Of a DNA stretch of 64,000 nt, positions 6,836-54,748 are shown in pieces (within the stretch, counting starts at the first letter, position 1; each line of letters starts with the position of its first letter). Source of the DNA: Naegleria gruberi (Eukaryota); NCBI GenBank assembly GCA_000004985.1, contig GG738846.1; one strand, 5' to 3'. The notes beneath the pieces were generated by a model. It ran no database searches, had not been told where the DNA came from, and saw only the letters and a program-made list of their open reading frames with translations. The position numbers were made by a program, and so were the translations under genes.

Positions 6836-7688
6836 TCAATTACATGTAAGTGAATAGTTGGGATTTTCAATCCAATCAAACAAGTGCTCATGTGGAAAGA
6901 TGGGATTTCCACAATTTGGATTTGAGAGTGTCTCGTTTGTGGTGAGTAACATTAAATCTAGAGATGGTGTATGTTTTGGGCTTCCCATTGCATTAAAGTG
7001 AAGCACCCTAACACAAGATGTGATGCAGTTTTGATGACCAGCATATTGCAAGTGTAGTCCACATTCCATTTCATGAATCCATGCTCTATTCGTTATTCTA
7101 TCGAGAGTATTGAGCACATCCTGATCAGCCAATAGTGTCTCTCCNNNNNNNNNNNNNNNNNNNNNNNNNNNNNNNNNNNNNNNNNNNNNNNNNNTACAGA
7201 TACTCCCAGGCATAGATTAGACCATCAAAACCATGAACCAAGAAGGTATCTGCATCCAAAAACAAGAAATGTGCCAATTTATGTTGAAAGAATTCAATCA
7301 GCTTTAACTTCTTGTTGGCAGAGGCAGCACTATAATGTGTCGATTTGGCGTCAACAGACAACTCGTTCGACTCATAGAATTTCAACGAAACTCTCTCACA
7401 AGAACCAAATCTCTTCACAATACAATCGATGGTATTGGTTGAATTCATGAAAACATGTAGAGTTACATGGTGGGGAGGCGAGGGACATGATGGAAGAGCT
7501 AACAATGGAGAGGCAACCTTTTCTGAGTTTTCATAGATTACCACAACATGCATGAGATGTCCAGCTCCAGCAGCACCAGGTTGTTTTGAAGAATATTTCT
7601 GGTGCGAGTAGAGAAAATGTCTTTCCAGGAGGAATGTTATGAGAGAGAAACAGAGAATTGGCAAAATGACTTTAAATTTATAATTCAT
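6836..7688 (-). CDS. type-II-membrane/secreted protein with DXD motif (possible glycosyltransferase); interrupted by 50-N assembly gap 7145-7194
   Basis: ATG at 7688..7686, followed by an N-terminal hydrophobic anchor (KVILPILCFSLITFLL) and an LFLDADTFLV motif. The same frame continues on both sides of the gap to a stop at 6836-6838. Confidence 0.4.
7145..7194. other. assembly gap (50 N)
   Basis: Run of N. Confidence 1.
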
Positions 7689-25556: not shown

Positions 25557-25606
25557 NNNNNNNNNNNNNNNNNNNNNNNNNNNNNNNNNNNNNNNNNNNN
25601 NNNNNN
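25557..25606. other. assembly gap (50 N)
   Basis: Run of N. Confidence 1.
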
Positions 25607-27575: not shown

Positions 27576-28066
27576 AATTATTTACTCCAAAATCTTGTAA
27601 AATTTCCAAGTTCCAAACTCATCTATTATTAGATCCACTTCCATTCCAAATTTCCAACCGAAAAAAATATCTACACTCCTCATCCTCACTCCAACTGATG
27701 AAATATCACTCACCTCTTCAGTTACATTCAAAATTAATGATAATAAATCAAAATTACTTACATTGTTTTCTGTTCAAAATCTGTTGCTTGCATATAAATC
27801 GTGCTGTTTAGCACAAATTGAATTATAACAAATTACCTAATTTCTTGTGATGAATAATTTTGATGATCCGTAGCAGGTAAAATCATATAATATGAAAATA
27901 ATACAACAAACCAATTTCGAAGAATAAAATCTTTATAAATCCAACTAACAACAATAATTAAAAAATTAAGAAATTAAGAAATTTAAATACAACAAACCAA
28001 TAAACAATAAAACTCCGCCAACAATTATCGTATTAACAAATTAATGATACTATTCAATATTTAATG

Positions 28067-29235
28067 NNNNNNNNNNNNNNNNNNNNNNNNNNNNNNNNNN
28101 NNNNNNNNNNNNNNNNNNNNNNNNNNNNNNNNNNNNNNNNNNNNNNNNNNNNNNNNNNNNNNNNNNNNNNNNNNNNNNNNNNNNNNNNNNNNNNNNNNNN
28201 NNNNNNNNNNNNNNNNNNNNNNNNNNNNNNNNNNNNNNNNNNNNNNNNNNNNNNNNNNNNNNNNNNNNNNNNNNNNNNNNNNNNNNNNNNNNNNNNNNNN
28301 NNNNNNNNNNNNNNNNNNNNNNNNNNNNNNNNNNNNNNNNNNNNNNNNNNNNNNNNNNNNNNNNNNNNNNNNNNNNNNNNNNNNNNNNNNNNNNNNNNNN
28401 NNNNNNNNNNNNNNNNNNNNNNNNNNNNNNNNNNNNNNNNNNNNNNNNNNNNNNNNNNNNNNNNNNNNNNNNNNNNNNNNNNNNNNNNNNNNNNNNNNNN
28501 NNNNNNNNNNNNNNNNNNNNNNNNNNNNNNNNNNNNNNNNNNNNNNNNNNNNNNNNNNNNNNNNNNNNNNNNNNNNNNNNNNNNNNNNNNNNNNNNNNNN
28601 NNNNNNNNNNNNNNNNNNNNNNNNNNNNNNNNNNNNNNNNNNNNNNNNNNNNNNNNNNNNNNNNNNNNNNNNNNNNNNNNNNNNNNNNNNNNNNNNNNNN
28701 NNNNNNNNNNNNNNNNNNNNNNNNNNNNNNNNNNNNNNNNNNNNNNNNNNNNNNNNNNNNNNNNNNNNNNNNNNNNNNNNNNNNNNNNNNNNNNNNNNNN
28801 NNNNNNNNNNNNNNNNNNNNNNNNNNNNNNNNNNNNNNNNNNNNNNNNNNNNNNNNNNNNNNNNNNNNNNNNNNNNNNNNNNNNNNNNNNNNNNNNNNNN
28901 NNNNNNNNNNNNNNNNNNNNNNNNNNNNNNNNNNNNNNNNNNNNNNNNNNNNNNNNNNNNNNNNNNNNNNNNNNNNNNNNNNNNNNNNNNNNNNNNNNNN
29001 NNNNNNNNNNNNNNNNNNNNNNNNNNNNNNNNNNNNNNNNNNNNNNNNNNNNNNNNNNNNNNNNNNNNNNNNNNNNNNNNNNNNNNNNNNNNNNNNNNNN
29101 NNNNNNNNNNNNNNNNNNNNNNNNNNNNNNNNNNNNNNNNNNNNNNNNNNNNNNNNNNNNNNNNNNNNNNNNNNNNNNNNNNNNNNNNNNNNNNNNNNNN
29201 NNNNNNNNNNNNNNNNNNNNNNNNNNNNNNNNNNN
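28067..29235. other. assembly gap (1169 N)
   Basis: Run of N. The six-frame ORFs spanning it are artefacts. Confidence 1.
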
Positions 29236-29236
29236 T

Positions 29237-29728
29237 TATCAGAAAGTGGTTGGAGAAAAGAAAGCAACACCAAACTTTCATATTTGTACTGAGTTAGTCA
29301 ATTCTTGTAGAATGTACGGCCCTCTTGGTGTAAATTCTGCTTTTATTGGAGAAGGACTCAATTTCACACTCTCAAAGACTTACGTTTGTTCAAATTCTGC
29401 TCGATATTCAATCATGTACTTTGATATGTGCCAATTATGTGATTTAATGGATTTAAATGAACCTCTTATTGCCTCTGAATGTATAGTTGGTCACTACGTT
29501 GTAAGAAAGGAATTAGATTGTATCAAGGATATCAAAACGAACGAAGTTTTCAAAGTGGCATCTTTCTCAAAAGATTTTAATGAGATTACCTTAATTTCCA
29601 ACACCACCAATAAGACAAGGGAGATTAGTAGAAGTGAAGCATTTGAAATGCTCCCATGTGTTGTTGTCAAACTCCCTGATGAAGAGAAATATATTCCTGT
29701 GCATTATTATGCATATCAATACTTTTAA
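29237..29728 (+). CDS. 3' part of a hypothetical protein gene truncated by the assembly gap
   Basis: The frame is open from the gap edge to TAA at 29726-29728 (163 codons). An internal ATG at 29311 (MYGPLGV…) could instead be the start of a 139-aa protein. Confidence 0.3.
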   Translation, partial: YQKVVGEKKATPNFHICTELVNSCRMYGPLGVNSAFIGEGLNFTLSKTYVCSNSARYSIMYFDMCQLCDLMDLNEPLIASECIVGHYVVRKELDCIKDIKTNEVFKVASFSKDFNEITLISNTTNKTREISRSEAFEMLPCVVVKLPDEEKYIPVHYYAYQYF

Positions 29729-31139: not shown

Positions 31140-33119
31140 AGAAGTAATTTCATTAGAATAATCCCCTTTAATATAGGTAAAGGTCCTGTTGTTATACTTG
31201 TAGGTTGTATCAGTATATTAAATTTAGTAATCATGATGGCTTGATATTGATGCCTAGGCCAAAATACTTAATAATAGGTTCATAGATTTGTTGGAACACT
31301 ATGGGAACCAATTGAATTATTTCACTTAATCATTGGTTCTAAAAGATTTTCTAGACAATGGATGAAAGTACAACGTTTCTTTTTCAAGAATGATGATAAG
31401 GACACTAGAAATTATGATCAAGTTAAGAAGAAGGTAATGAGGTTAGAAAAAGACACCAAGCTTCAATTGCAAAACTTAACATTGGCATAAACTGGACTGC
31501 AATTGAAAATTACTGAATCCTACCCTATTAACGAAGAGTACATTAGTATTTATAATAAGGTTTCAATAACCGAAGAAGAGTTTCAAAAAACAATACTACT
31601 AAGATTAATAAATATATTTAAATATATCAACAACTCCAAAAAACAACACCAAGAAGAGCAACAACACAAACAAGAAGACCACGGAAACTGAACAAGAAGA
31701 AGAATTTGAAAATTTAGTTCTTAGAAAATATTGGCGAATATTCCAATGCAAGAATTAAGGTTGGAGTGGTACAACAACAATAGATAGAAACTCTCTGATA
31801 ATTCAAAAAAAGTAGAGATACTTTCTCAACCGCATCTTCTTATGTGTTTATCATTTGTTTGAGTGGTGAAGGATAGTAAATTATCAAATCTAAAGTGCAG
31901 GTAAATGAAAAAAAAGTAGAGATACTTTCTCGATCAAATCGTGTCATCCTTGTCCAGGGACCATGCTAATCTTCTCTGTATCGTTTATCCAATTTTCTAG
32001 CGTCCCTCGAGGGGACTTATCAATATAGGATTTGGTCGATGACTAAAAGTTGAACAAGAAAATATAGTAGTTTTTATTGTGGTTTTGAAAAATGACCTTT
32101 AATTTAATTAGTAAAAATATATTGGAAAGAGAGTGGCTACTTTCTTCTGGTACTATTAAATCACTAATAAACACAATATTTATTATCAGTTTTTCATTAT
32201 TTTGTGTTTTGGCTTGGAGCCAAACCTTGATTGATTCACTCCTTCAAGATTGATCAAACTCATTGCGAACAAGATATTAAAATATTAAATTCTTATTGTT
32301 TCTTTTAATTTCTTTCACCTTAAATCTAACAATTAACCTCATTTCCATAAACATCACTATGATCAAATTAAATTTCAAAGATAACCAACTTGTTCAACAT
32401 CTACACATTCTAGTGATCACACTCATATCAATTAATCCATTTTTCATTTTCAAATTTTTTACTTTCCAAAGTTTCCCAACAAAAATGTCAAAACGTAATA
32501 GGAGTAGTTTATAAGCTGAACCTAAGGTGCCAACTCAAAAGACTTACAATAAAACAAATAATCATAAAGGCCAATATAATAGCAACAGGCGGCAGTCACA
32601 TTAAGGATAAAGCAGGATACAGCATTGTGACAGACAGGGAAAACCTTCAAATCAGGCATCATATGCCCAAAATGCTGAACTACAAGCTTATCCATAAAGC
32701 TAATAAAGAAACTGGCTTCAAACTATGAATGGAGCAAAGATCTTAACAAATATGTAAGCATTTTGTAACAGCCATTTTTTCAATCAAGTGAAGATACTCT
32801 ATTGTCTTTTAGTTTTACAACGTGATATTTCTTTAGATGCACAAGTAGCTCATGCTCTCACAAACGAGATGAAAATCTCTCTTCCCTTCTACAACTCTCA
32901 ACTTTGAGATGTTTGATTTAATCAGCGAAAAACAACGAGTTCCAATCTTATTAGTGTGTGAGTGAAGATTATAATATTGGTGAATGAAAGTGAAATTTCC
33001 AAATATTCAACTTGACACTTCACTTGGCCCAACTATACTATTAAACAGCGTCTATCTTTTTGTGGCGTTCAATTTTAAAAACAATAACAACTTTATTTTT
33101 CATATTATAAAATTATAAT

Positions 33120-40631: not shown

Positions 40632-42152
40632 ATGAAAATTTCCACAATCAAACAATTAGTACGGGAAGCTAGTGCAAAAAATCGACAACAATCACAAATT
40701 TCAAATCACCGCGACGATGATTCTGATGCAATGACCGTAAGCAATGATGAAGAAATGAAGGAATTCAATTCTTCTGATCAATTAATTTCCAATTCTTCTT
40801 CTTCTTCAACTGCTCCGAAACAAAGAAAGAACAGAAAGAATTATATTACATCAAATTCGTTTTTTTCTAAAACACATTCAATTAAGATGTATGCTGATTT
40901 GTGGTTTTATATTTCGAAATTTATGGATGAACCTTTAAATTACTTTCTTACACAGTTTCGTTTAATTTGTAAACAGGCCTTGGAGGCTGCAAGCAGATAC
41001 ACCAAATTGGAAATGAATGGGATTTATGGAAATAGATTATTTTTAATGATTTGTAATCACATGACCGAACTTAAAGTATTGTCATTAGAGAAACGATTAC
41101 AAAATCGAAAGAAAGTAGGAATTACAGATATAGGTCCATTGAAAAGGGGAAATTTAGAAAAGTTAGAATATTTAAACTTGCAAAATAATTCCATTTCCAA
41201 TGTTACAGCTTTTGGTGTTGCAAAGAATTTGAAAAATTTGAAATATTTGAATTTAAAAGGTAACAAGATTACTACTTGGCAATATTTGGCTAATAAGAAA
41301 TTGAGGAATATCGAATATTTAAATTTGAATAGTAACATGATTACCAGTGTGTACACGTATCTTTATATAGATACCAAATTACCTGAATCCAATTTGAAAA
41401 CTCTCAAATTGGGAAATAACAAGTTGGATGCAATTTTTTTCGTTAACATTAATATGAACTATTTCTCCAATTTAACAAACTTGGATTTGAAATATAATAG
41501 AGAAATTGGTACGATATGGTATAATGGTGAATCGAAATTGGATAAATTGGAGCAATTGAATATTAGTGGAACAAGTATTATCGATCTGACACATGTTCTA
41601 ACTAGCTTTCCAAAATTGAAAATTCTCAAATATGGCAGTGTTGACTATGAAAGCATGACAACAATGAGCAATCTATTGCAAGAATTATCTCCATCCATAG
41701 TCGAAGATACACCACTAAAAAATCAAATTGAGACGCTCTATTTGAATAACATGAAACTAACGTGTGGAAATATTGTAGAGCTCTGCAATCTGAAACTATA
41801 TCAACAATTAACCAAACTAGTCTTGAGTGAGAACAAAATTTGCAACCAATCTATTCAAGTGCTTTCCCAAGTACCAAATCAATTGACTAGCTTGACTGTT
41901 CGTAATTGTTTTCTTAATGATGGTTGTGCCACACATCTATGCTCCTTTCCAAAATTGAAATACTTGGATGTTGCCTGGAATTTCCTCACCAATTCAGGTT
42001 GTAATGTGTTGGTGAGCTCGAATTTGGACCATCTCGATATCACTCACAATACTTACATTGATGCCAAGCTCATTTCAAGTCGGCCAACCAGTATCAAGAA
42101 GATTATTTATGGTTGGGGAAGAACCAACATTCATGAAAGAATTACTCAATAG
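40632..42152 (+). CDS. leucine-rich repeat (LRR) protein (506 aa)
   Basis: ATG at 40632 (aaaaaaaaacATG). About 12 LxxLxLxxNxI repeats (LEYLNLQNNSISNV; LKYLNLKGNKIT; IEYLNLNSNMITSV …). TAG at 42150-42152. Confidence 0.55.
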   Translation: MKISTIKQLVREASAKNRQQSQISNHRDDDSDAMTVSNDEEMKEFNSSDQLISNSSSSSTAPKQRKNRKNYITSNSFFSKTHSIKMYADLWFYISKFMDEPLNYFLTQFRLICKQALEAASRYTKLEMNGIYGNRLFLMICNHMTELKVLSLEKRLQNRKKVGITDIGPLKRGNLEKLEYLNLQNNSISNVTAFGVAKNLKNLKYLNLKGNKITTWQYLANKKLRNIEYLNLNSNMITSVYTYLYIDTKLPESNLKTLKLGNNKLDAIFFVNINMNYFSNLTNLDLKYNREIGTIWYNGESKLDKLEQLNISGTSIIDLTHVLTSFPKLKILKYGSVDYESMTTMSNLLQELSPSIVEDTPLKNQIETLYLNNMKLTCGNIVELCNLKLYQQLTKLVLSENKICNQSIQVLSQVPNQLTSLTVRNCFLNDGCATHLCSFPKLKYLDVAWNFLTNSGCNVLVSSNLDHLDITHNTYIDAKLISSRPTSIKKIIYGWGRTNIHERITQ

Positions 42153-42230
42153 TAAATTTATTCAAATTCACAATTATATGTAATAACAAATAGATGAACA
42201 TTTAAAAGTAAAATTAAAACTTTAAAAAAA

Positions 42231-43529
42231 ATGTTTAACAAGTAGGTAGGAAATATTTTCTCTCTCTTTTTATTGAATTCTAAATAATGGAATTGTTATT
42301 GTGATGCCTATCGGAATTAATTGATATAATCCTGGACTAAATATTTATATATATTTTGATTGAATTTACTATTAATATTATCATCATCATATGATATTAG
42401 AATTTTGGGAGGATTAAGTAAAACAAGTATATTTTCAAAAATTGGATCAATTCTAGGAGGTGGAGCAACATCAAGGAAGATATTTAATGAGGAGGATTTT
42501 AAATTGTTGGAAAAGGCTCTTCTCTCGAGTGATGTCGGAAATAATACTACACAATTACTTCTAACAAGGATGAAGACACAAGTATCTGAAATTGAAAAGC
42601 AAATTGAAAATAATCCCACTGCAGAGGAAAATGTCAAACCCATGAAGAATATTCTACGTGAGGAAATGCTGAAATTATTCCAATATCCAATGCAACAACA
42701 AATTGTAAAGAGATTGCAACAAAATCAAGGAACACCTGAGGGTGGAGTTTCCATTCCTTTGATTCCATTAAATCCAAAATCAAGACCAACTGTTGTACAA
42801 ATTTGTGGAGTGAATGGATCTGGAAAGACAACAACTATTGGAAAATTATTACACAAGTATAGAGAATCAGGAACTGTTAGAAATATTGTTGTTGCAGCTG
42901 CAGATACAGTCCGAGCAGCAGCTCCAGATCAATTGAGAACTTGGGTTGAACGTACAAGTGGATGTACTCTCGTCGATTTGACAGAATCTGAAAAATTGAA
43001 AAAACAACACACTACAACTCCTCAACAAGTCAAAGTTAAGAATATTAGACAAGTGAGTTATAAGGTTCCTGCTGAAAGTGTAGTTTATGAAGCCATTCAA
43101 CAAGCTTTGAGAAAGGAAGATGTTGACCTTGTTTTTGTTGACACTGCAGGAAGATTGCAAAATCAAGAAGCTTCAATGAAAGAATTGAGTTTAATTACTG
43201 AAATGTGTTCCAAGTCGAGAAAGGGAGCACCTGATCATACATGGCTCATTCTCGATGGTACAATAGGTCAAAATTCTATACAACAAGCCAAACTATTCCA
43301 AAAGTATGTGAGAATTTCAGGAATTATTGTCACTAAATTGGATGGAAGTGCCAAAGGAGGTGTCATTCTTGCAATTGCCAATGAATTGAAAATCCCAGTT
43401 CTCTACATTGGTTTGGGAGAAAGTGTCAGTGATTTGAAACCTTTTTATCCTGAACAATTTGTTGATTCCATCTTGTCAGTAGCCTCAGCAGAGGAAAAAC
43501 AAACAAAATCAGAAGAGGATGATGAATAA
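42231..43529 (+). CDS. ftsY: bacterial-type FtsY (SRP receptor NG domain) homolog, probable organellar (mitochondrial) relic; 2 exons (42231..42241, 42401..43529)
   Basis: The NG-domain GTPase motifs are FtsY-like, not SR-alpha-like: GVNGSGKTTTIGKL, DTAGRLQN, and IIVTKLDGSAKGGVILAIANELKIPVLYIGLGESVSDLKPF. The track ORF has no in-frame ATG until codon 72. An 11-nt first exon ATGTTTAACAA plus a 159-nt intron (GTAGGT…ATATTAG, 42242..42400) gives MFNKILGGLSKTSIF…, which matches the start of the bacterial FtsY N-domain. TAA at 43527-43529. Confidence 0.6.
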
Positions 43530-43600: not shown

Positions 43601-46229
43601 ATGAAAGAACATGATATTGAACAATTTATTGAATGGTCCCACAACATTGGAGCCTTCAAACATGAAAATATTGACTTGAAATTCATCTCCTCCGAGTGTG
43701 GTATCGGAGGTATTCTAACATCAGACATTCAAGCCTCTGAAGATGATCAAGTGGATTTATTATCTGTTCCTTTGGAAAATTGTTTAAATGTTAGGAATAT
43801 GAATAGGGAATTTAGAGATTTAATATCGGAATTGAAATTAATTGCTGATGGAAATAATGATAAGAATGAAGAACTTGCTTCTCAGTGGAAGGGAACAAAC
43901 ATGTTTGAAAATGGATTAATTGTTTTCTACATGTTTTTAATTTATGAGTTACATGTTGAGAAGGAGAAGAGTACACACTTTCCATATTTGAATTTATTAC
44001 CAAGGGAATTTACTACAGCTCTTTATTTTGATGAAGATGAAATGGCTGCATTGAGATCTACCAATTTGTACAAATCTGTGCAGAGTATTAGACAAAATTT
44101 GAAGCAAATTTACGAAACGAAAGTGGAATATTTAATGAACAAGTATCCACAAAAGTTTGATAGACAAGTGTTTAGTTATGAGAATTTCATGTGGGCTTTT
44201 TCTGCTGTTTGGTCAAGAGTTTTTCCAATTGAATATCCTGCAGAGAATGGAGAAGGTGTGGAAATTGTTCCAACATTATTGCCAACAGTTGACATTTTGA
44301 ATCACAAATTTAATGCCAAGATTACATATTTCACAGGATCTGACAGAAGATTCTACTTGAAAACAAGAGAATCTCTCAAAAGCGGAGACTATGTCTGCAA
44401 CAATTATGGAGCAAAGAGTAATGATTCATTCTTATTGAGTTATGGATTTGTCATTCCAAATAATTCTGAAGACACTCTCTATGTTCAATTTGGTATTTCT
44501 GATGATGGCAATGAAGAATTGGTTCAATTCAAGAAAAAGTATTTGGAAGACAATTCTCTCAAGTAAGTTTTATAACATCTTTATCTTGATAATATTCCAA
44601 TAGTCTTGGATTTTATCTCAAAAAACAACAACTGCCAGAAGACATGCTAGATTCCATTCGTATCTGTATGATGACCGAAGATGATTTTTATCTTGCCAAA
44701 CAATCAACAATCTCTCAACACAGAGAACAATCTAAGGATTCTGTCTACAGATTCAGTGTAAAGAATGAATTCAAAATGCTTCACACACTGAGGTCATTGT
44801 TCATATCAAAGAGACGTCTCTTCCCAACCACTATTGAAGAAGATGAAGAAGAGTTGAGTGAAGAAACCAACTTTAACATGCAAAATATTCTCATTTACAT
44901 AATTGGACAAAAGAAGATTATTGAAAATGCCTTGAAATGCATTGATGAAAAACTCTCTACTTTGCTTGGAACCTATACCAAACTTGTGGACAATAATAAT
45001 CATCAGGAAAATATTCTCCAAACCATGAAGAATATCTTTATTGAAAATAGTGGAAAATTATCTGTGGAAATGAGACCAGAATTGAATTCTTTCCATGCCA
45101 TTTCCAAAGAATCCATCTCAAAAGGTGAAATAGTAATGATTGTCAAATCAGAGGAATTAATAGATGTGGATAATGCTCTTGATTCCCCGTTTGGAGAATT
45201 CTACACTGAGGCAAGAGAGGAGGATCTCAGTGCCAATCTCGATGATGAAATGGCTGTCATGTTTTACATTATGTTTGAAATGTTCTCCTCTCCAAATTCA
45301 CCTCTCAAGTCCAATAATCACAAAAAGTTTTTCAATCTCCTTCTCAAGCATTACAATTTCCAAGAAACTCCATTCCTCTCCGAAAAACTTCAAGATGAGC
45401 TGAGTGGAACCAATACCCTTGATTTGATTCAGAGAACAAGAGATGGACTTTCTGAAGTTTTCGAGGAGATTAAGAGTGCCCTCATACAGTCTGGTGTAAG
45501 TTTTCATTCTCTAATTTTTTACTGAAATTTATATTTTCACAGTTGCAAGATGAGGAAAATGTAATGACCTTTGAAAACTTTCTAGTTGCCTATTCAGTAT
45601 TTGATTTGTTCGCTGTTGGATCAGAGACTGTATTACCAATACCAGCAATTTCACAATTAGGCAGCTTTTTGGTTGAGTTTGATGATGGAAATCTTGTGGT
45701 TAAAAGTTTGATTGACATTCCTAAAGATAAGATTATTACCTTCTCTGCCCTTTCACTCACAAAACCAATCGAAGACTTACTCATGTACAACATTTATCCA
45801 ATTGATTATGAATTGGCCTTGCCTAATGTAAAACATGCCATTGGTATTGATTTGGAATCTTTAGAATCTCTCATTACACAACAAAAGCTTGACATTTTGA
45901 ATTTTTTGAACAATTTATCCTTCACTCACTATTTGACAAGAGGTAGAAAGTGTAGCCTTCTTCCAATCCAATTAGGAGTTTTATTTACTACAGATGAGAT
46001 TGCACTTTCAAACCTTCTCAATCAAAAAAAGATTGAAATTAACATGTTTGATTCGTCAGTCATGGAGAATGTGAATCACGTCATTAGTGCAATGGTTGAA
46101 AACTTTGCAAGTGCCTTCTCAGAGAATGAGGAAGCAGTAGAAGAAATCAGAACACTGTCAAGTATAGAACAGAATGCAAAACTCTTCTTTCCTCACTTCT
46201 TTCAGAATAAAAACCTTCAATTTTATTAA
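43601..46229 (+). CDS. SET-domain protein-lysine methyltransferase (SETD3/Rubisco-LSMT-like), 3 exons (43601..44562, 44604..45495, 45543..46229)
   Basis: ATG at 43601. SET motifs …LPTVDILNHKFNAKITYF… and GDYVCNNYGAKSNDSFLLSYGFV. Intron 1 is 44563..44603 (41 nt, GTAAGT…CCAATAG, phase 2). Intron 2 is 45496..45542 (47 nt, GTAAGT…TTTTCACAG, phase 0). Both join three track ORFs in frame. TAA at 46227-46229. Confidence 0.6.
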
Positions 46230-53291: not shown

Positions 53292-54133
53292 ATGGCTTTT
53301 ATATTTCCACTAGAACAGGTGGAAAACAAAAAGGAAGGCCTTGTCAAGGAAAGCAAAGCGATTTGCAGATTGTTAGATTTGGGTTTCGGTCCGTTGAATG
53401 AATTACTCTCCAGTGACAGTGTTACAGATTGTAGATTGGATAGATTGTTCAATGGGGATCGATTCTTCTCAAATTCCAGCAGAGATTTGCAAATCAATTA
53501 CAAAACAAGTCGTATTCACACTCTTGATAAGGGTGACTCTTATTCTTGTTTTATAGATGATGGAAACAACTTTGTAATTCAATCAGATGAGAGAATAATT
53601 GAAAGATCTCCATTTGTGATTAGATTGGATCAAGAAACTTTGGAATCATTCTTTCCAAATCTTCCAACTGAGGTAAAGGATATGTATAATCTTTTAAAGA
53701 GAGTCATTGGATATTCTAAAAAGTATAGCTTGTTAAGATTTGCTTCCTTATTTCAATGCAACCCAAAACCAGCAACTGGATTATCAGTTAAGAAAATTGT
53801 TTTATTAAGAATTTTAATCAAGTTAATAATTTGAAAATTATATTTCCAATTGACGTAGGTGAATTTCAAAGAGTTGATTTTGCCAATTCCCAATTCGTTT
53901 TTAAGAATGCCAATATTCCACTCACACATTTAAAGATGAACTCTAGATTGTTCAATACATTAGCTGTTCAAATCAAATTGAGTAATTCAATTTTCAGAGA
54001 TTCATTCAAAATTACATTAGATGATGATGATGGAGATGATGATGAAGATGATGGAGAAGATGATGAAGAAGATGAAAATGATGATGGAGAAGATGAAGAG
54101 AGAGGAACATCAAAAAAAACAAAATTCGATTAA
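53292..54133 (+). CDS. hypothetical ORFs 53292-53834 and 53831-54133; the latter ends in a long acidic tail
   Basis: The two frames are adjacent, with a C-terminal DDDDGDDDEDDGEDDEEDENDDGEDEE tract. The exon structure is unresolved. Confidence 0.25.
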
Positions 54134-54282: not shown

Positions 54283-54748
54283 TTATTCTTGAGAAGCATT
54301 CTTCATGTATTCAATCAAATCGGCTCTTTCGGCTGGCTTCTTCAAACCTGTTAAAATTAAGTTAAAATTAAAATTAAATTAAAATTAAATAAAAAAATAA
54401 AATTAAATAAAAAAATAAATGTTAAATAATTAATAATAATAAAATCATTAAATAATAATGCAAATAAATGATGAGCGTACCTGCAAAAACCATTTTAGTT
54501 CCAGGTATATACTTCTTAGGATCCAACAAATAATCAAAGAGGGATTGTTCATTCCAAGTAACACCCTTTTCCTTATTGGCAGCAGAGTAGGCATAACCTT
54601 CAGCCAAACCAGACTTTCTACCCCACATACCGTAGAGATTTGGACCAACCTTGTGAGCACCTCCCTTGTTGATGGTGTGACATTGGGCACATCTGGCCTT
54701 GAAGATCTTTTCACCCTTAGTTGCGTTACCTTGTGGAATTTCTATCAA
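54283..54748 (-). CDS. cyc: cytochrome c, 2 exons (54748..54481, 54347..54283)
   Basis: The heme-binding CAQCH motif and classic cytochrome c sequence ([84 protein letters not shown]|[20 protein letters not shown]). The intron is 54348..54480 (133 nt, GTACGC…TTTTAACAG, phase 1). TAA at 54283-54285. Total 110 aa. Confidence 0.85.

What the first reader, a model, noticed from the sequence alone, without database searches (positions are those of the whole stretch)
42231..43529. Nuclear gene for a bacterial-type FtsY (SRP receptor) with a spliceosomal intron, likely an organellar SRP-pathway relic
Eukaryotic cytosolic SRP receptors are SR-alpha type. This protein instead has the FtsY-specific NG-domain signatures (VTKLDGSAKGGVILAIANELKIPVLYIGLGE…DLKPF). 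It starts directly at the N-domain (MFNKILGGLSKTSIF…), like alpha-proteobacterial FtsY without an A-domain. It lies in an ordinary intron-containing nuclear context between an LRR gene and a SET gene, so contamination is unlikely. Plastid cpFtsY is the usual eukaryotic FtsY, but nothing else here suggests a plastid and cytochrome c indicates a mitochondriate organism. To my recollection, mitochondrial FtsY/Ffh relics have been described in only a handful of protist lineages, heteroloboseans among them. This locus would be such a case, or a new one.
Basis: partly seen in the sequence, partly recalled or inferred. Interest (0 to 1): 0.7.

Follow-up and report, generated by a model that had tools for sequence, protein, structure and literature searches.

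The report
Naegleria gruberi mitochondrial FtsY gene

Summary
An 11-nt first exon (42231-42241), a 159-nt GT..AG intron (42242-42400) and a second exon (42401-43529) give a 379-aa protein. It has an SRP54_N helical bundle, an SRP54-type GTPase domain and all G1-G5 motifs. It scores best as bacterial FtsY: NCBIfam TIGR00064 245.9 bits, against Ffh 159 and SRP54 140; solved bacterial FtsY structures 160-177 bits. It has no SR-alpha SRX domain. The surroundings are plainly eukaryotic, and the same phase-2 intron sits at the same codon in N. lovaniensis, Willaertia magna and Acrasis kona.

The window is Naegleria gruberi. The spliced protein is identical, 379 of 379 residues, to the corrected "NgFtsY/mtFtsY" of Pyrih et al. 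2021 (Mol Biol Evol 38:3170, PMC8321541). That paper revised this gene model in the same way, confirmed the 5' end by PCR on the transcript and by peptides, and placed the protein in mitochondria by LOPIT proteomics and by expression in Trypanosoma brucei. It also described the partner mtFfh.

Small additions from this work:
- The N-terminus aligns with the bacterial FtsY N-terminal helix and carries no extension.
- There are two lineage-specific insertions.
- The intron is old within Heterolobosea.
- Metagenomic relatives exist.

The parts
42231..42241 (+). Exon 1 of mtFtsY (ATGTTTAACAA; Met-Phe-Asn plus the first two bases of Lys4)
   Evidence: The same 11-nt mini-exon is found in N. lovaniensis and Acrasis kona, and a 14-nt one in Willaertia magna.
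42242..42400 (+). Spliceosomal intron, 159 nt, GT..AG, phase 2, GC 0.23
   Evidence: The position is conserved in L001 (172 nt), L002 (65 nt), L006 (38 nt) and, on my reading, L003 (34 nt). The published table lists 1 intron for this gene.
42401..43529 (+). Exon 2 of mtFtsY, including the TAA stop at 43527-43529
   Evidence: 100% identical to the N. gruberi predicted protein P0001 over its 319 aa.
42402..42488 (+). Together with exon 1, N-terminal residues 1-33: 5 Lys/Arg, no acidic residue, rich in Ser/Thr/Gly. Residues 1-13 (MFNKILGGLSKTS) align with the bacterial FtsY N-terminal helix (F.RLK.GL.KT). Probable location of the mitochondrial import signal.
   Evidence: Alignment; composition; AF2 pLDDT below 50 here. 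The paper showed that the N-terminal leader suffices for mitochondrial import in T. brucei. The exact length of the tested leader could not be read.
42438..42719 (+). N domain (helical bundle; includes the ALLSSDVG motif at aa 44-50)
   Evidence: Pfam SRP54_N over aa 17-79; helices in the AF2 model.
42705..42773 (+). Insertion of about 18-23 aa in the N-G linker (VKRLQQNQGTPEGGVSIPLIPLNP), present only in Naegleria and Willaertia
   Evidence: Alignment; pLDDT 75-79.
42774..43478 (+). G (GTPase) domain: G1 GVNGSGKT (aa 140-147), DTVRAAA (172-178), DTAGR (251-255), TKLD (315-318), GSAKGG (319-324), GLGE (341-344)
   Evidence: Pfam SRP54 2.3e-60; motif positions; invariant columns; Foldseek top hits are FtsY structures.
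42975..43067 (+). Insertion of about 25-30 aa in the insertion-box region (DLTESEKLKKQHTTTPQQVKVKNIRQVSYK), shared by heterolobosean sequences including Acrasis and absent from bacterial FtsY
   Evidence: Alignment. It splits the HMM matches into two stretches. pLDDT is about 60.
40632..42152 (+). Upstream neighbour: leucine-rich-repeat protein gene (context only)
   Evidence: Pfam LRR_4 and LRR_8.
43601..46229 (+). Downstream neighbour: SET/LSMT-type methyltransferase gene, multi-exon (context only)
   Evidence: Rubis-subs-bind domain. The paper names XP_002682643.1 as a 'SET family protein immediately downstream'.

Best explanation
The locus is the Naegleria gruberi nuclear gene for mtFtsY, a bacterial-type SRP receptor that is imported into the mitochondrion.

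Shown here: the gene structure, the FtsY-type NG architecture with an intact GTPase motif set, the eukaryotic nuclear context, and identity with the published NgFtsY.

Shown in the literature (PMC8321541): the transcript 5' end, peptides, co-fractionation with mitochondrial markers, import of the N-terminal leader and of the full-length protein into T. brucei mitochondria, and the existence of a partner mtFfh that lacks an SRP RNA.

Inferred mechanism, following the bacterial paradigm:
1. mtFfh binds hydrophobic N-terminal segments of mitochondrially encoded membrane proteins as they leave the mitoribosome.
2. mtFtsY, peripherally attached to the inner membrane, forms a GTP-dependent NG-NG heterodimer with mtFfh.
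3. Reciprocal GTPase activation releases the nascent chain to an insertase, most likely Oxa1, since SecY is absent from these mitochondria.

My confidence of 0.9 refers to the identity of the gene. I rate the co-translational Oxa1-delivery mechanism at about 0.6.
For: - The spliced protein equals the published corrected NgFtsY at 379 of 379 residues, and the flanking SET gene matches the paper's description.
- P0001, the N. gruberi predicted protein, is 100% identical.
- Pfam finds SRP54_N and SRP54 GTPase.
- NCBIfam scores FtsY 245.9 bits, Ffh 159 and SRP54_euk 140.
- In PDB phmmer, bacterial FtsY scores 160-177 bits, cpFtsY 158-167, archaeal FtsY 111-118 and SRP54/Ffh 93-115; no SR-alpha chain is among the 60 matches shown.
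- The AF2 model has pLDDT 85 and pTM 0.84, and its top 42 Foldseek PDB hits are all FtsY or cpFtsY.
- All G motifs are present, and all 37 columns that are invariant across 50 FtsY sequences are kept.
- The intron position is conserved in four heterolobosean genera.
- Published localisation and partner protein. Published mechanistic model.
Against: - The TIGR00064 score is just under NCBI's trusted cut-off (245.9 against 260.7), because two insertions interrupt the match.
- Published targeting predictions for NgFtsY are mixed: TargetP mTP 0.022 ('other'), MitoProt 0.669, MitoFates 0.699, Predotar 0.38.
- There is no N-terminal extension over bacterial FtsY, so a classical cleavable presequence is not evident.
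- No functional assay exists in any mtSRP-bearing organism: no GTPase measurement, no Ffh binding, no substrates.
- The bacterial sister group of mtFtsY is unresolved.
Confidence: 0.9

Rival explanations
1. mtFtsY and mtFfh act post-translationally. They would hand nucleus-encoded proteins that have already been imported into the matrix to Oxa1, by analogy with chloroplast SRP delivering LHC proteins to Alb3, and would not act co-translationally on mitoribosome products.
For: The authors of the 2021 paper raise this as a possibility that cannot be dismissed. The mitochondrial SRP lacks an RNA, as the seed-plant chloroplast SRP does.
Against: No cpSRP43-like adaptor was found by phylogenetic profiling. 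N-termini of several mitochondrially encoded N. gruberi proteins behave as signal peptides in T. brucei, which fits the co-translational route (abstract).
Confidence: 0.2
2. The gene is a recent bacterial acquisition or an assembly contaminant, not an ancestral mitochondrial relic.
For: The closest non-heterolobosean hits are bacterial FtsY at 37-38% identity, from Bacteroidia, Nitrospinae and other groups, not clearly alphaproteobacterial. The published trees do not resolve the bacterial sister group.
Against: The gene has a spliceosomal intron at a position conserved across Naegleria, Willaertia and Acrasis. It lies between eukaryotic genes on a scaffold of about 1 Mb. Its GC content matches the neighbourhood. 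The published mtFtsY clade unites four distant eukaryotic lineages, and its partner mtFfh has strong alphaproteobacterial affinity.
Confidence: 0.04
3. It is a plastid-type cpFtsY left over from a lost plastid.
For: cpFtsY structures score almost as well as bacterial FtsY: 158-167 bits, Foldseek E about 1e-21.
Against: The similarity to cpFtsY is no higher than to unrelated bacterial FtsY. The published phylogeny places mtFtsY apart from cpFtsY. The protein fractionates with mitochondria. Naegleria has no plastid (general knowledge).
Confidence: 0.02
4. It is a divergent cytosolic/ER SR-alpha.
For: None beyond the NG fold that it shares.
Against: Pfam reports no SRX/SRP-alpha_N domain. No SR-alpha chain appears among the 60 PDB matches shown, all of which score at least 93 bits. 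The paper reports a separate N. gruberi SRP54 and SR-alpha that follow ER markers in LOPIT.
Confidence: 0.01

Closest known systems
NgFtsY / mtFtsY of Pyrih et al. 2021 (Mol Biol Evol 38:3170; PMC8321541); GenBank XP_002682642.1 (truncated model), ACER01000034.1:330136-331575
   Same: The same gene. The spliced protein is 379/379 identical, with one intron and the same downstream SET-family neighbour.
   Different: Nothing differs in sequence. My additions, which I did not find in the paper's main text (term search): an explicit alignment of the N-terminus to the bacterial FtsY N-terminal helix, the two insertions, and conservation of the intron position in Willaertia, Acrasis and metagenome contigs.
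Bacterial FtsY, short form without an A-domain (e.g. Thermotoga maritima 1VMA, Thermus aquaticus 1RJ9/1OKK)
   Same: NG architecture, all GTPase motifs, the FtsY-type TKLDGxAKGG loop, and an N-terminal F..L..GL.KT helix. About 33-38% identity; 160-177 bits.
   Different: Encoded in a eukaryotic nucleus with an intron. Two insertions, in the N-G linker and in the insertion-box loop. DTVRAAA instead of DTFRAAA. An acidic C-terminal tail. The partner Ffh lacks an SRP RNA.
Chloroplast cpFtsY (Arabidopsis 2OG2/3B9Q/5L3R)
   Same: A nucleus-encoded, organelle-targeted bacterial-type FtsY that works with an RNA-less SRP54 homologue. Similar scores, 158-167 bits.
   Different: A different organelle and a separate clade in the published trees. 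cpFtsY works alongside a thylakoid SecY/Alb3 system, whereas mitochondria that carry mtSRP lack SecY.
Eukaryotic SR-alpha
   Same: Homologous NG GTPase core and the role of SRP receptor.
   Different: SR-alpha has an N-terminal SRX domain that binds SR-beta and is of archaeal descent. Neither feature is seen here.

Membership tests
Bacterial-type FtsY (SRP receptor, NCBIfam TIGR00064) | SRP54_N helical bundle followed by an SRP54-type GTPase domain (NG), with no M domain | tested here: met
   Pfam PF02881 (3.7e-05) and PF00448 (2.3e-60). The protein ends 16 aa after the G domain. The AF2 model matches FtsY structures with target-normalised TM-scores of 0.74-0.89.
Bacterial-type FtsY (SRP receptor, NCBIfam TIGR00064) | GTPase motifs G1-G5 and the insertion-box DTxRAAA..Q motif are intact | tested here: met
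   GVNGSGKT, DTVRAAA...Q181, DTAGR, TKLD, GLGE. All 37 invariant columns of a 50-sequence FtsY alignment are retained.
Bacterial-type FtsY (SRP receptor, NCBIfam TIGR00064) | Scores better as FtsY than as Ffh/SRP54, with the FtsY-type TKLDG(T/S)AKGG loop | tested here: met
   FtsY 245.9 bits, Ffh 159.1, SRP54_euk 140.2. GSAKGG at aa 319-324. That this loop is FtsY-specific (DARGG in Ffh) rests on my own knowledge.
Bacterial-type FtsY (SRP receptor, NCBIfam TIGR00064) | Reaches the curated equivalog cut-off | tested here: not met
   245.9 bits against a cut-off of 260.7. The shortfall comes from the two lineage-specific insertions, which split the match into two stretches. The model was built for prokaryotic annotation.
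Bacterial-type FtsY (SRP receptor, NCBIfam TIGR00064) | GTP-dependent heterodimer with Ffh and reciprocal GTPase activation | not testable with these tools
   Needs biochemistry; none has been published for any mtFtsY.
mtFtsY (mitochondrial FtsY clade, Pyrih et al. 2021) | Sequence belongs to the published clade | tested here: met
   Identical to the published NgFtsY. The nearest relatives are N. lovaniensis at 82%, a sequence identical from residue 11 onward to the published N. fowleri mtFtsY (P0003) at 83%, Willaertia at 71% and Acrasis at 39%. I did not compute a tree.
mtFtsY (mitochondrial FtsY clade, Pyrih et al. 2021) | Nuclear gene (spliceosomal intron and/or eukaryotic neighbours) | tested here: met
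mtFtsY (mitochondrial FtsY clade, Pyrih et al. 2021) | Mitochondrial localisation | not testable with these tools
   Published: LOPIT co-fractionation and import into T. brucei mitochondria. Here only the N-terminal composition could be checked: 5 basic and no acidic residues in the first 33 aa. Published predictors disagree.
mtFtsY (mitochondrial FtsY clade, Pyrih et al. 2021) | Co-occurrence with mtFfh in the same genome | not tested
   mtFfh is not in this window. The paper reports it at ACER01000115.1 / XP_002680081.1.
Eukaryotic SR-alpha | N-terminal SRX (SRP-alpha_N) domain, with the NG domain closest to SR-alpha | tested here: not met
   Pfam reports no such domain. No SR-alpha chain is among the 60 PDB matches shown.
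Chloroplast cpFtsY | Specific relationship to the cpFtsY/cyanobacterial clade, and plastid targeting | tested here: inconclusive
   Similarity to cpFtsY (158-167 bits) is not higher than to diverse bacterial FtsY. The published trees separate the two clades. No tree was computed here.

The most novel reading that the evidence does not exclude
The mitochondrial import signal of mtFtsY is not an added presequence. It would be the ancestral bacterial FtsY N-terminal membrane-binding helix itself (MFNKILGGLSKTS aligning with F.RLK.GL.KT), reused as an import signal that is probably not cleaved and that afterwards still tethers the receptor to the inner membrane. The protein is no longer at the N-terminus than short bacterial FtsY. 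The first 33 residues are basic and free of acidic residues. The published N-terminal leader suffices for import. Separately, the mini-exon and phase-2 intron are conserved across Heterolobosea, and prokaryote-style gene calls on metagenome contigs hide further mtFtsY genes, so the system may be more widespread in environmental protists than is catalogued.
Probability: 0.35. Interest if true: 0.3.

Novelty: already known. Interest (0 to 1): 0.15.

Why it matters
The biology is remarkable: it is a remnant of the bacterial SRP targeting pathway that survives in the mitochondria of a few protist lineages, which implies that the last eukaryotic common ancestor had it. That conclusion was drawn from this very gene in 2021. 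What remains useful is practical. The N-terminal homology to the bacterial membrane-binding helix gives a concrete hypothesis about how the protein is both imported and anchored to the membrane.

Tried and rejected
- Contamination or a chimeric contig was rejected on three grounds: the conserved intron, the eukaryotic flanks and the matching composition.
- Alternative 5' structures were checked. There is no in-frame ATG upstream of 42231 before the stop at 42195. The only other start, M61, truncates the N domain.
- The apparent anomaly at 28-30 kb (GC 0.135, with overlapping ORFs in several frames) is an assembly gap of 1169 N.
- I did not build a phylogeny with SR-alpha, cpFtsY and alphaproteobacterial sequences, because those sequences could not be obtained reliably. 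I relied on HMM and PDB score ranking and on the published trees.
- An 18-residue hydrophobic-moment scan of the N-terminus gave only weak amphipathicity (0.13-0.23). The 'amphipathic helix' reading therefore rests on alignment, not on biophysics.
- A literature search found no follow-up functional work on mtFtsY since 2021.

Full report
**Observation.**
- An ATG at 42231 opens an 11-nt exon (ATGTTTAACAA).
- A 159-nt intron follows (42242-42400). It starts GTAGGT, ends TAG, and has GC 0.23 against 0.36 for the coding part.
- The second exon runs from 42401 to the TAA at 43527-43529.
- The spliced CDS is 1140 nt and encodes 379 residues, starting MFNKILGGLSKTSIF.
- An in-frame stop at 42195 with no intervening ATG rules out a longer first exon.
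- Without the mini-exon, the first ATG in the long ORF is Met61, which would delete half of the N domain.

**What the protein is.**
- Pfam finds the SRP54-type GTPase domain (E 2.3e-60) and the SRP54_N helical bundle.
- NCBIfam ranks FtsY (TIGR00064, 245.9 bits) well above Ffh (159.1) and eukaryotic SRP54 (140.2). The FtsY score is slightly under the curated equivalog cut-off of 260.7, because two insertions split the match.
- Against the sequences of all solved structures, bacterial FtsY scores 160-177 bits, chloroplast cpFtsY 158-167, archaeal FtsY 111-118 and SRP54/Ffh 93-115. No SR-alpha chain is among the 60 matches shown.
- No SRX domain is present.
- An AlphaFold2 model of the exon-2 product, built with a 50-sequence alignment, has mean pLDDT 85 and pTM 0.84.
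- The top 42 Foldseek hits of that model in the PDB are all bacterial FtsY or cpFtsY.
- All GTPase motifs are intact: GVNGSGKT, DTVRAAA, DTAGR, TKLD, GSAKGG, GLGE.
- All 37 columns that are invariant in the alignment of 50 FtsY sequences are retained.

The protein is therefore a bacterial-type FtsY that looks catalytically competent.

**Nuclear, eukaryotic context.**
- The upstream gene encodes an LRR protein. The downstream gene carries a Rubisco-LSMT substrate-binding domain, typical of SET-type methyltransferases.
- Elsewhere the window encodes an RGS protein, an EGF-repeat receptor kinase, dymeclin, an RCC1-kinase, Yip1 and a PAS-adenylate cyclase, and a U6 snRNA.
- Base composition is uniform across the locus.

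**Identity of the locus.**
- A protein search returned a Naegleria gruberi 'predicted protein' of 319 aa that is 100% identical to the C-terminal 84% of the query.
- Next came N. lovaniensis (82%), a sequence matching the published N. fowleri mtFtsY (P0003, 83%), Willaertia magna (71%) and Acrasis kona (39%), and then bacterial FtsY at 38% or less.
- A literature search led to Pyrih et al. [quoted passage not shown]
- Its supplementary Table S1 lists N. gruberi mtFtsY as XP_002682642.1, 'inaccurate gene model', one intron, with XP_002682643.1, a SET family protein, immediately downstream. It also gives a corrected sequence.
- The paper places the gene at ACER01000034.1:330136-331575.

The paper reports the following about this gene and its product:
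- The revised 5' end was confirmed by PCR amplification of the transcript 5' end and by peptides.
- The protein co-fractionates with mitochondrial markers in LOPIT proteomics, while the cytosolic SRP54 and SR-alpha follow ER markers.
- Both the N-terminal leader and the full-length protein direct mNeonGreen into T. brucei mitochondria.
- A partner, mtFfh, exists.
- No SRP RNA accompanies the mitochondrial SRP.
- mtFtsY forms a clade that unites Heterolobosea, Hemimastigophora, Alveida and Goniomonas.
- The bacterial sister group of that clade is unresolved. An alphaproteobacterial origin is not rejected by AU tests.

**Independent support for the gene model.** The intron lies at the same position and phase, inside the fourth or fifth codon, in several relatives:
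- N. lovaniensis: 11-nt exon, 172-nt intron.
- Willaertia magna: 14-nt exon, 65-nt intron.
- Acrasis kona: 11-nt exon, 38-nt intron.
- On my reading, also a JGI metagenome contig (L003: ATGTTTAAGAG, then a 34-nt intron) and a TARA contig (L004). In both, the prokaryote-style gene calls miss the mini-exon.

**Details beyond the paper.** These are modest.
1. The N-terminus MFNKILGGLSKTS aligns with the conserved F.RLK.GL.KT segment at the start of the bacterial FtsY N domain, and there is no extension over short bacterial FtsY (the 1VMA alignment). From my own knowledge, that segment is the membrane-targeting helix of bacterial FtsY.
2. The first 33 residues carry five basic residues and no acidic ones.
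3. The paper states that FtsY N-termini are too poorly conserved for such a comparison. A term search found none of 'amphipathic', 'A domain' or 'membrane-targeting' in its main text.
4. Published predictors disagree on NgFtsY targeting: TargetP says 'other', while MitoFates gives 0.699.
5. The import signal therefore seems to overlap the ancestral helix. Whether it is cleaved is unknown.
6. There are two insertions. One, of about 18-23 aa in the N-G linker, is specific to Naegleria and Willaertia. The other, of about 25-30 aa in the insertion-box loop, is shared by the heterolobosean sequences aligned here, including Acrasis. Both are modelled with lower confidence.

**Mechanism.**
- Shown here: the architecture and the intact motifs.
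- Published: localisation and the partner protein.
- Inferred from the bacterial paradigm and argued in the paper: mtFfh captures hydrophobic N-termini of mitochondrially encoded membrane proteins at the mitoribosome. mtFtsY at the inner membrane forms a GTP-dependent NG heterodimer with it. GTP hydrolysis releases the nascent chain to Oxa1, since SecY is absent.
- A post-translational role, analogous to chloroplast SRP, is the main rival.
- Contamination, a plastid relic and a divergent SR-alpha are each rejected by the evidence above.

**Verdict.** The finding is already known. No later functional work turned up. Interest as a discovery is low.

Noticed in passing
window 31912-32016 (-): Full-length U6 spliceosomal snRNA gene (Rfam RF00026, 76.6 bits, E 1.1e-17).
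   Followed up: no
window 7145-7194, 25557-25606, 28067-29235: Runs of N (assembly gaps of 50, 50 and 1169 nt). The largest explains the GC dip to 0.135 at 28-30 kb and the spurious overlapping 400-550-aa 'ORFs' in several frames at 28050-29728.
   Followed up: yes
window 42579-43529 (+) / protein P0001: The public GenBank/UniRef model of this gene (XP_002682642.1, 319 aa) starts at Met61 and lacks the first half of the N domain. The truncated form is still what protein databases hold.
   Followed up: yes
L003 3739-4771 (JGI metagenome 3300037860); L004 about 1716-2820 and L005 (TARA / ENA metagenomes): Environmental contigs encode mtFtsY-like proteins, 44% identical to the window's protein, that carry the heterolobosean insertion-box insertion. 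They appear to have the same 11-nt mini-exon and phase-2 intron. Prokaryotic gene callers truncated their N-termini and labelled them 'fused signal recognition particle receptor'. L003 has a thioredoxin gene upstream, as does the Acrasis kona locus L006.
   Followed up: partly
L001 (N. lovaniensis), L002 (Willaertia magna): Gene order around mtFtsY is not conserved with N. gruberi. An FKBP gene lies downstream on the opposite strand in both N. lovaniensis and Willaertia, and actin lies upstream in N. lovaniensis. In N. gruberi the neighbours are the LRR and SET genes.
   Followed up: no
window 43601-46229 (+): The downstream SET/LSMT-like gene appears to be split into at least three ORF segments (43601-44566, 44644-45525, 45543-46229), which implies short introns. 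Only the Rubis-subs-bind domain was detected by Pfam at E below 1e-3; the SET domain itself was not.
   Followed up: no
window 54020-54099: A 21-nt tandem repeat (GATGAAGAAGATGAAGATGAT, 3.8 copies) that would encode an acidic Asp/Glu run, followed by AT-rich tandem repeats at 54363-54468.
   Followed up: no
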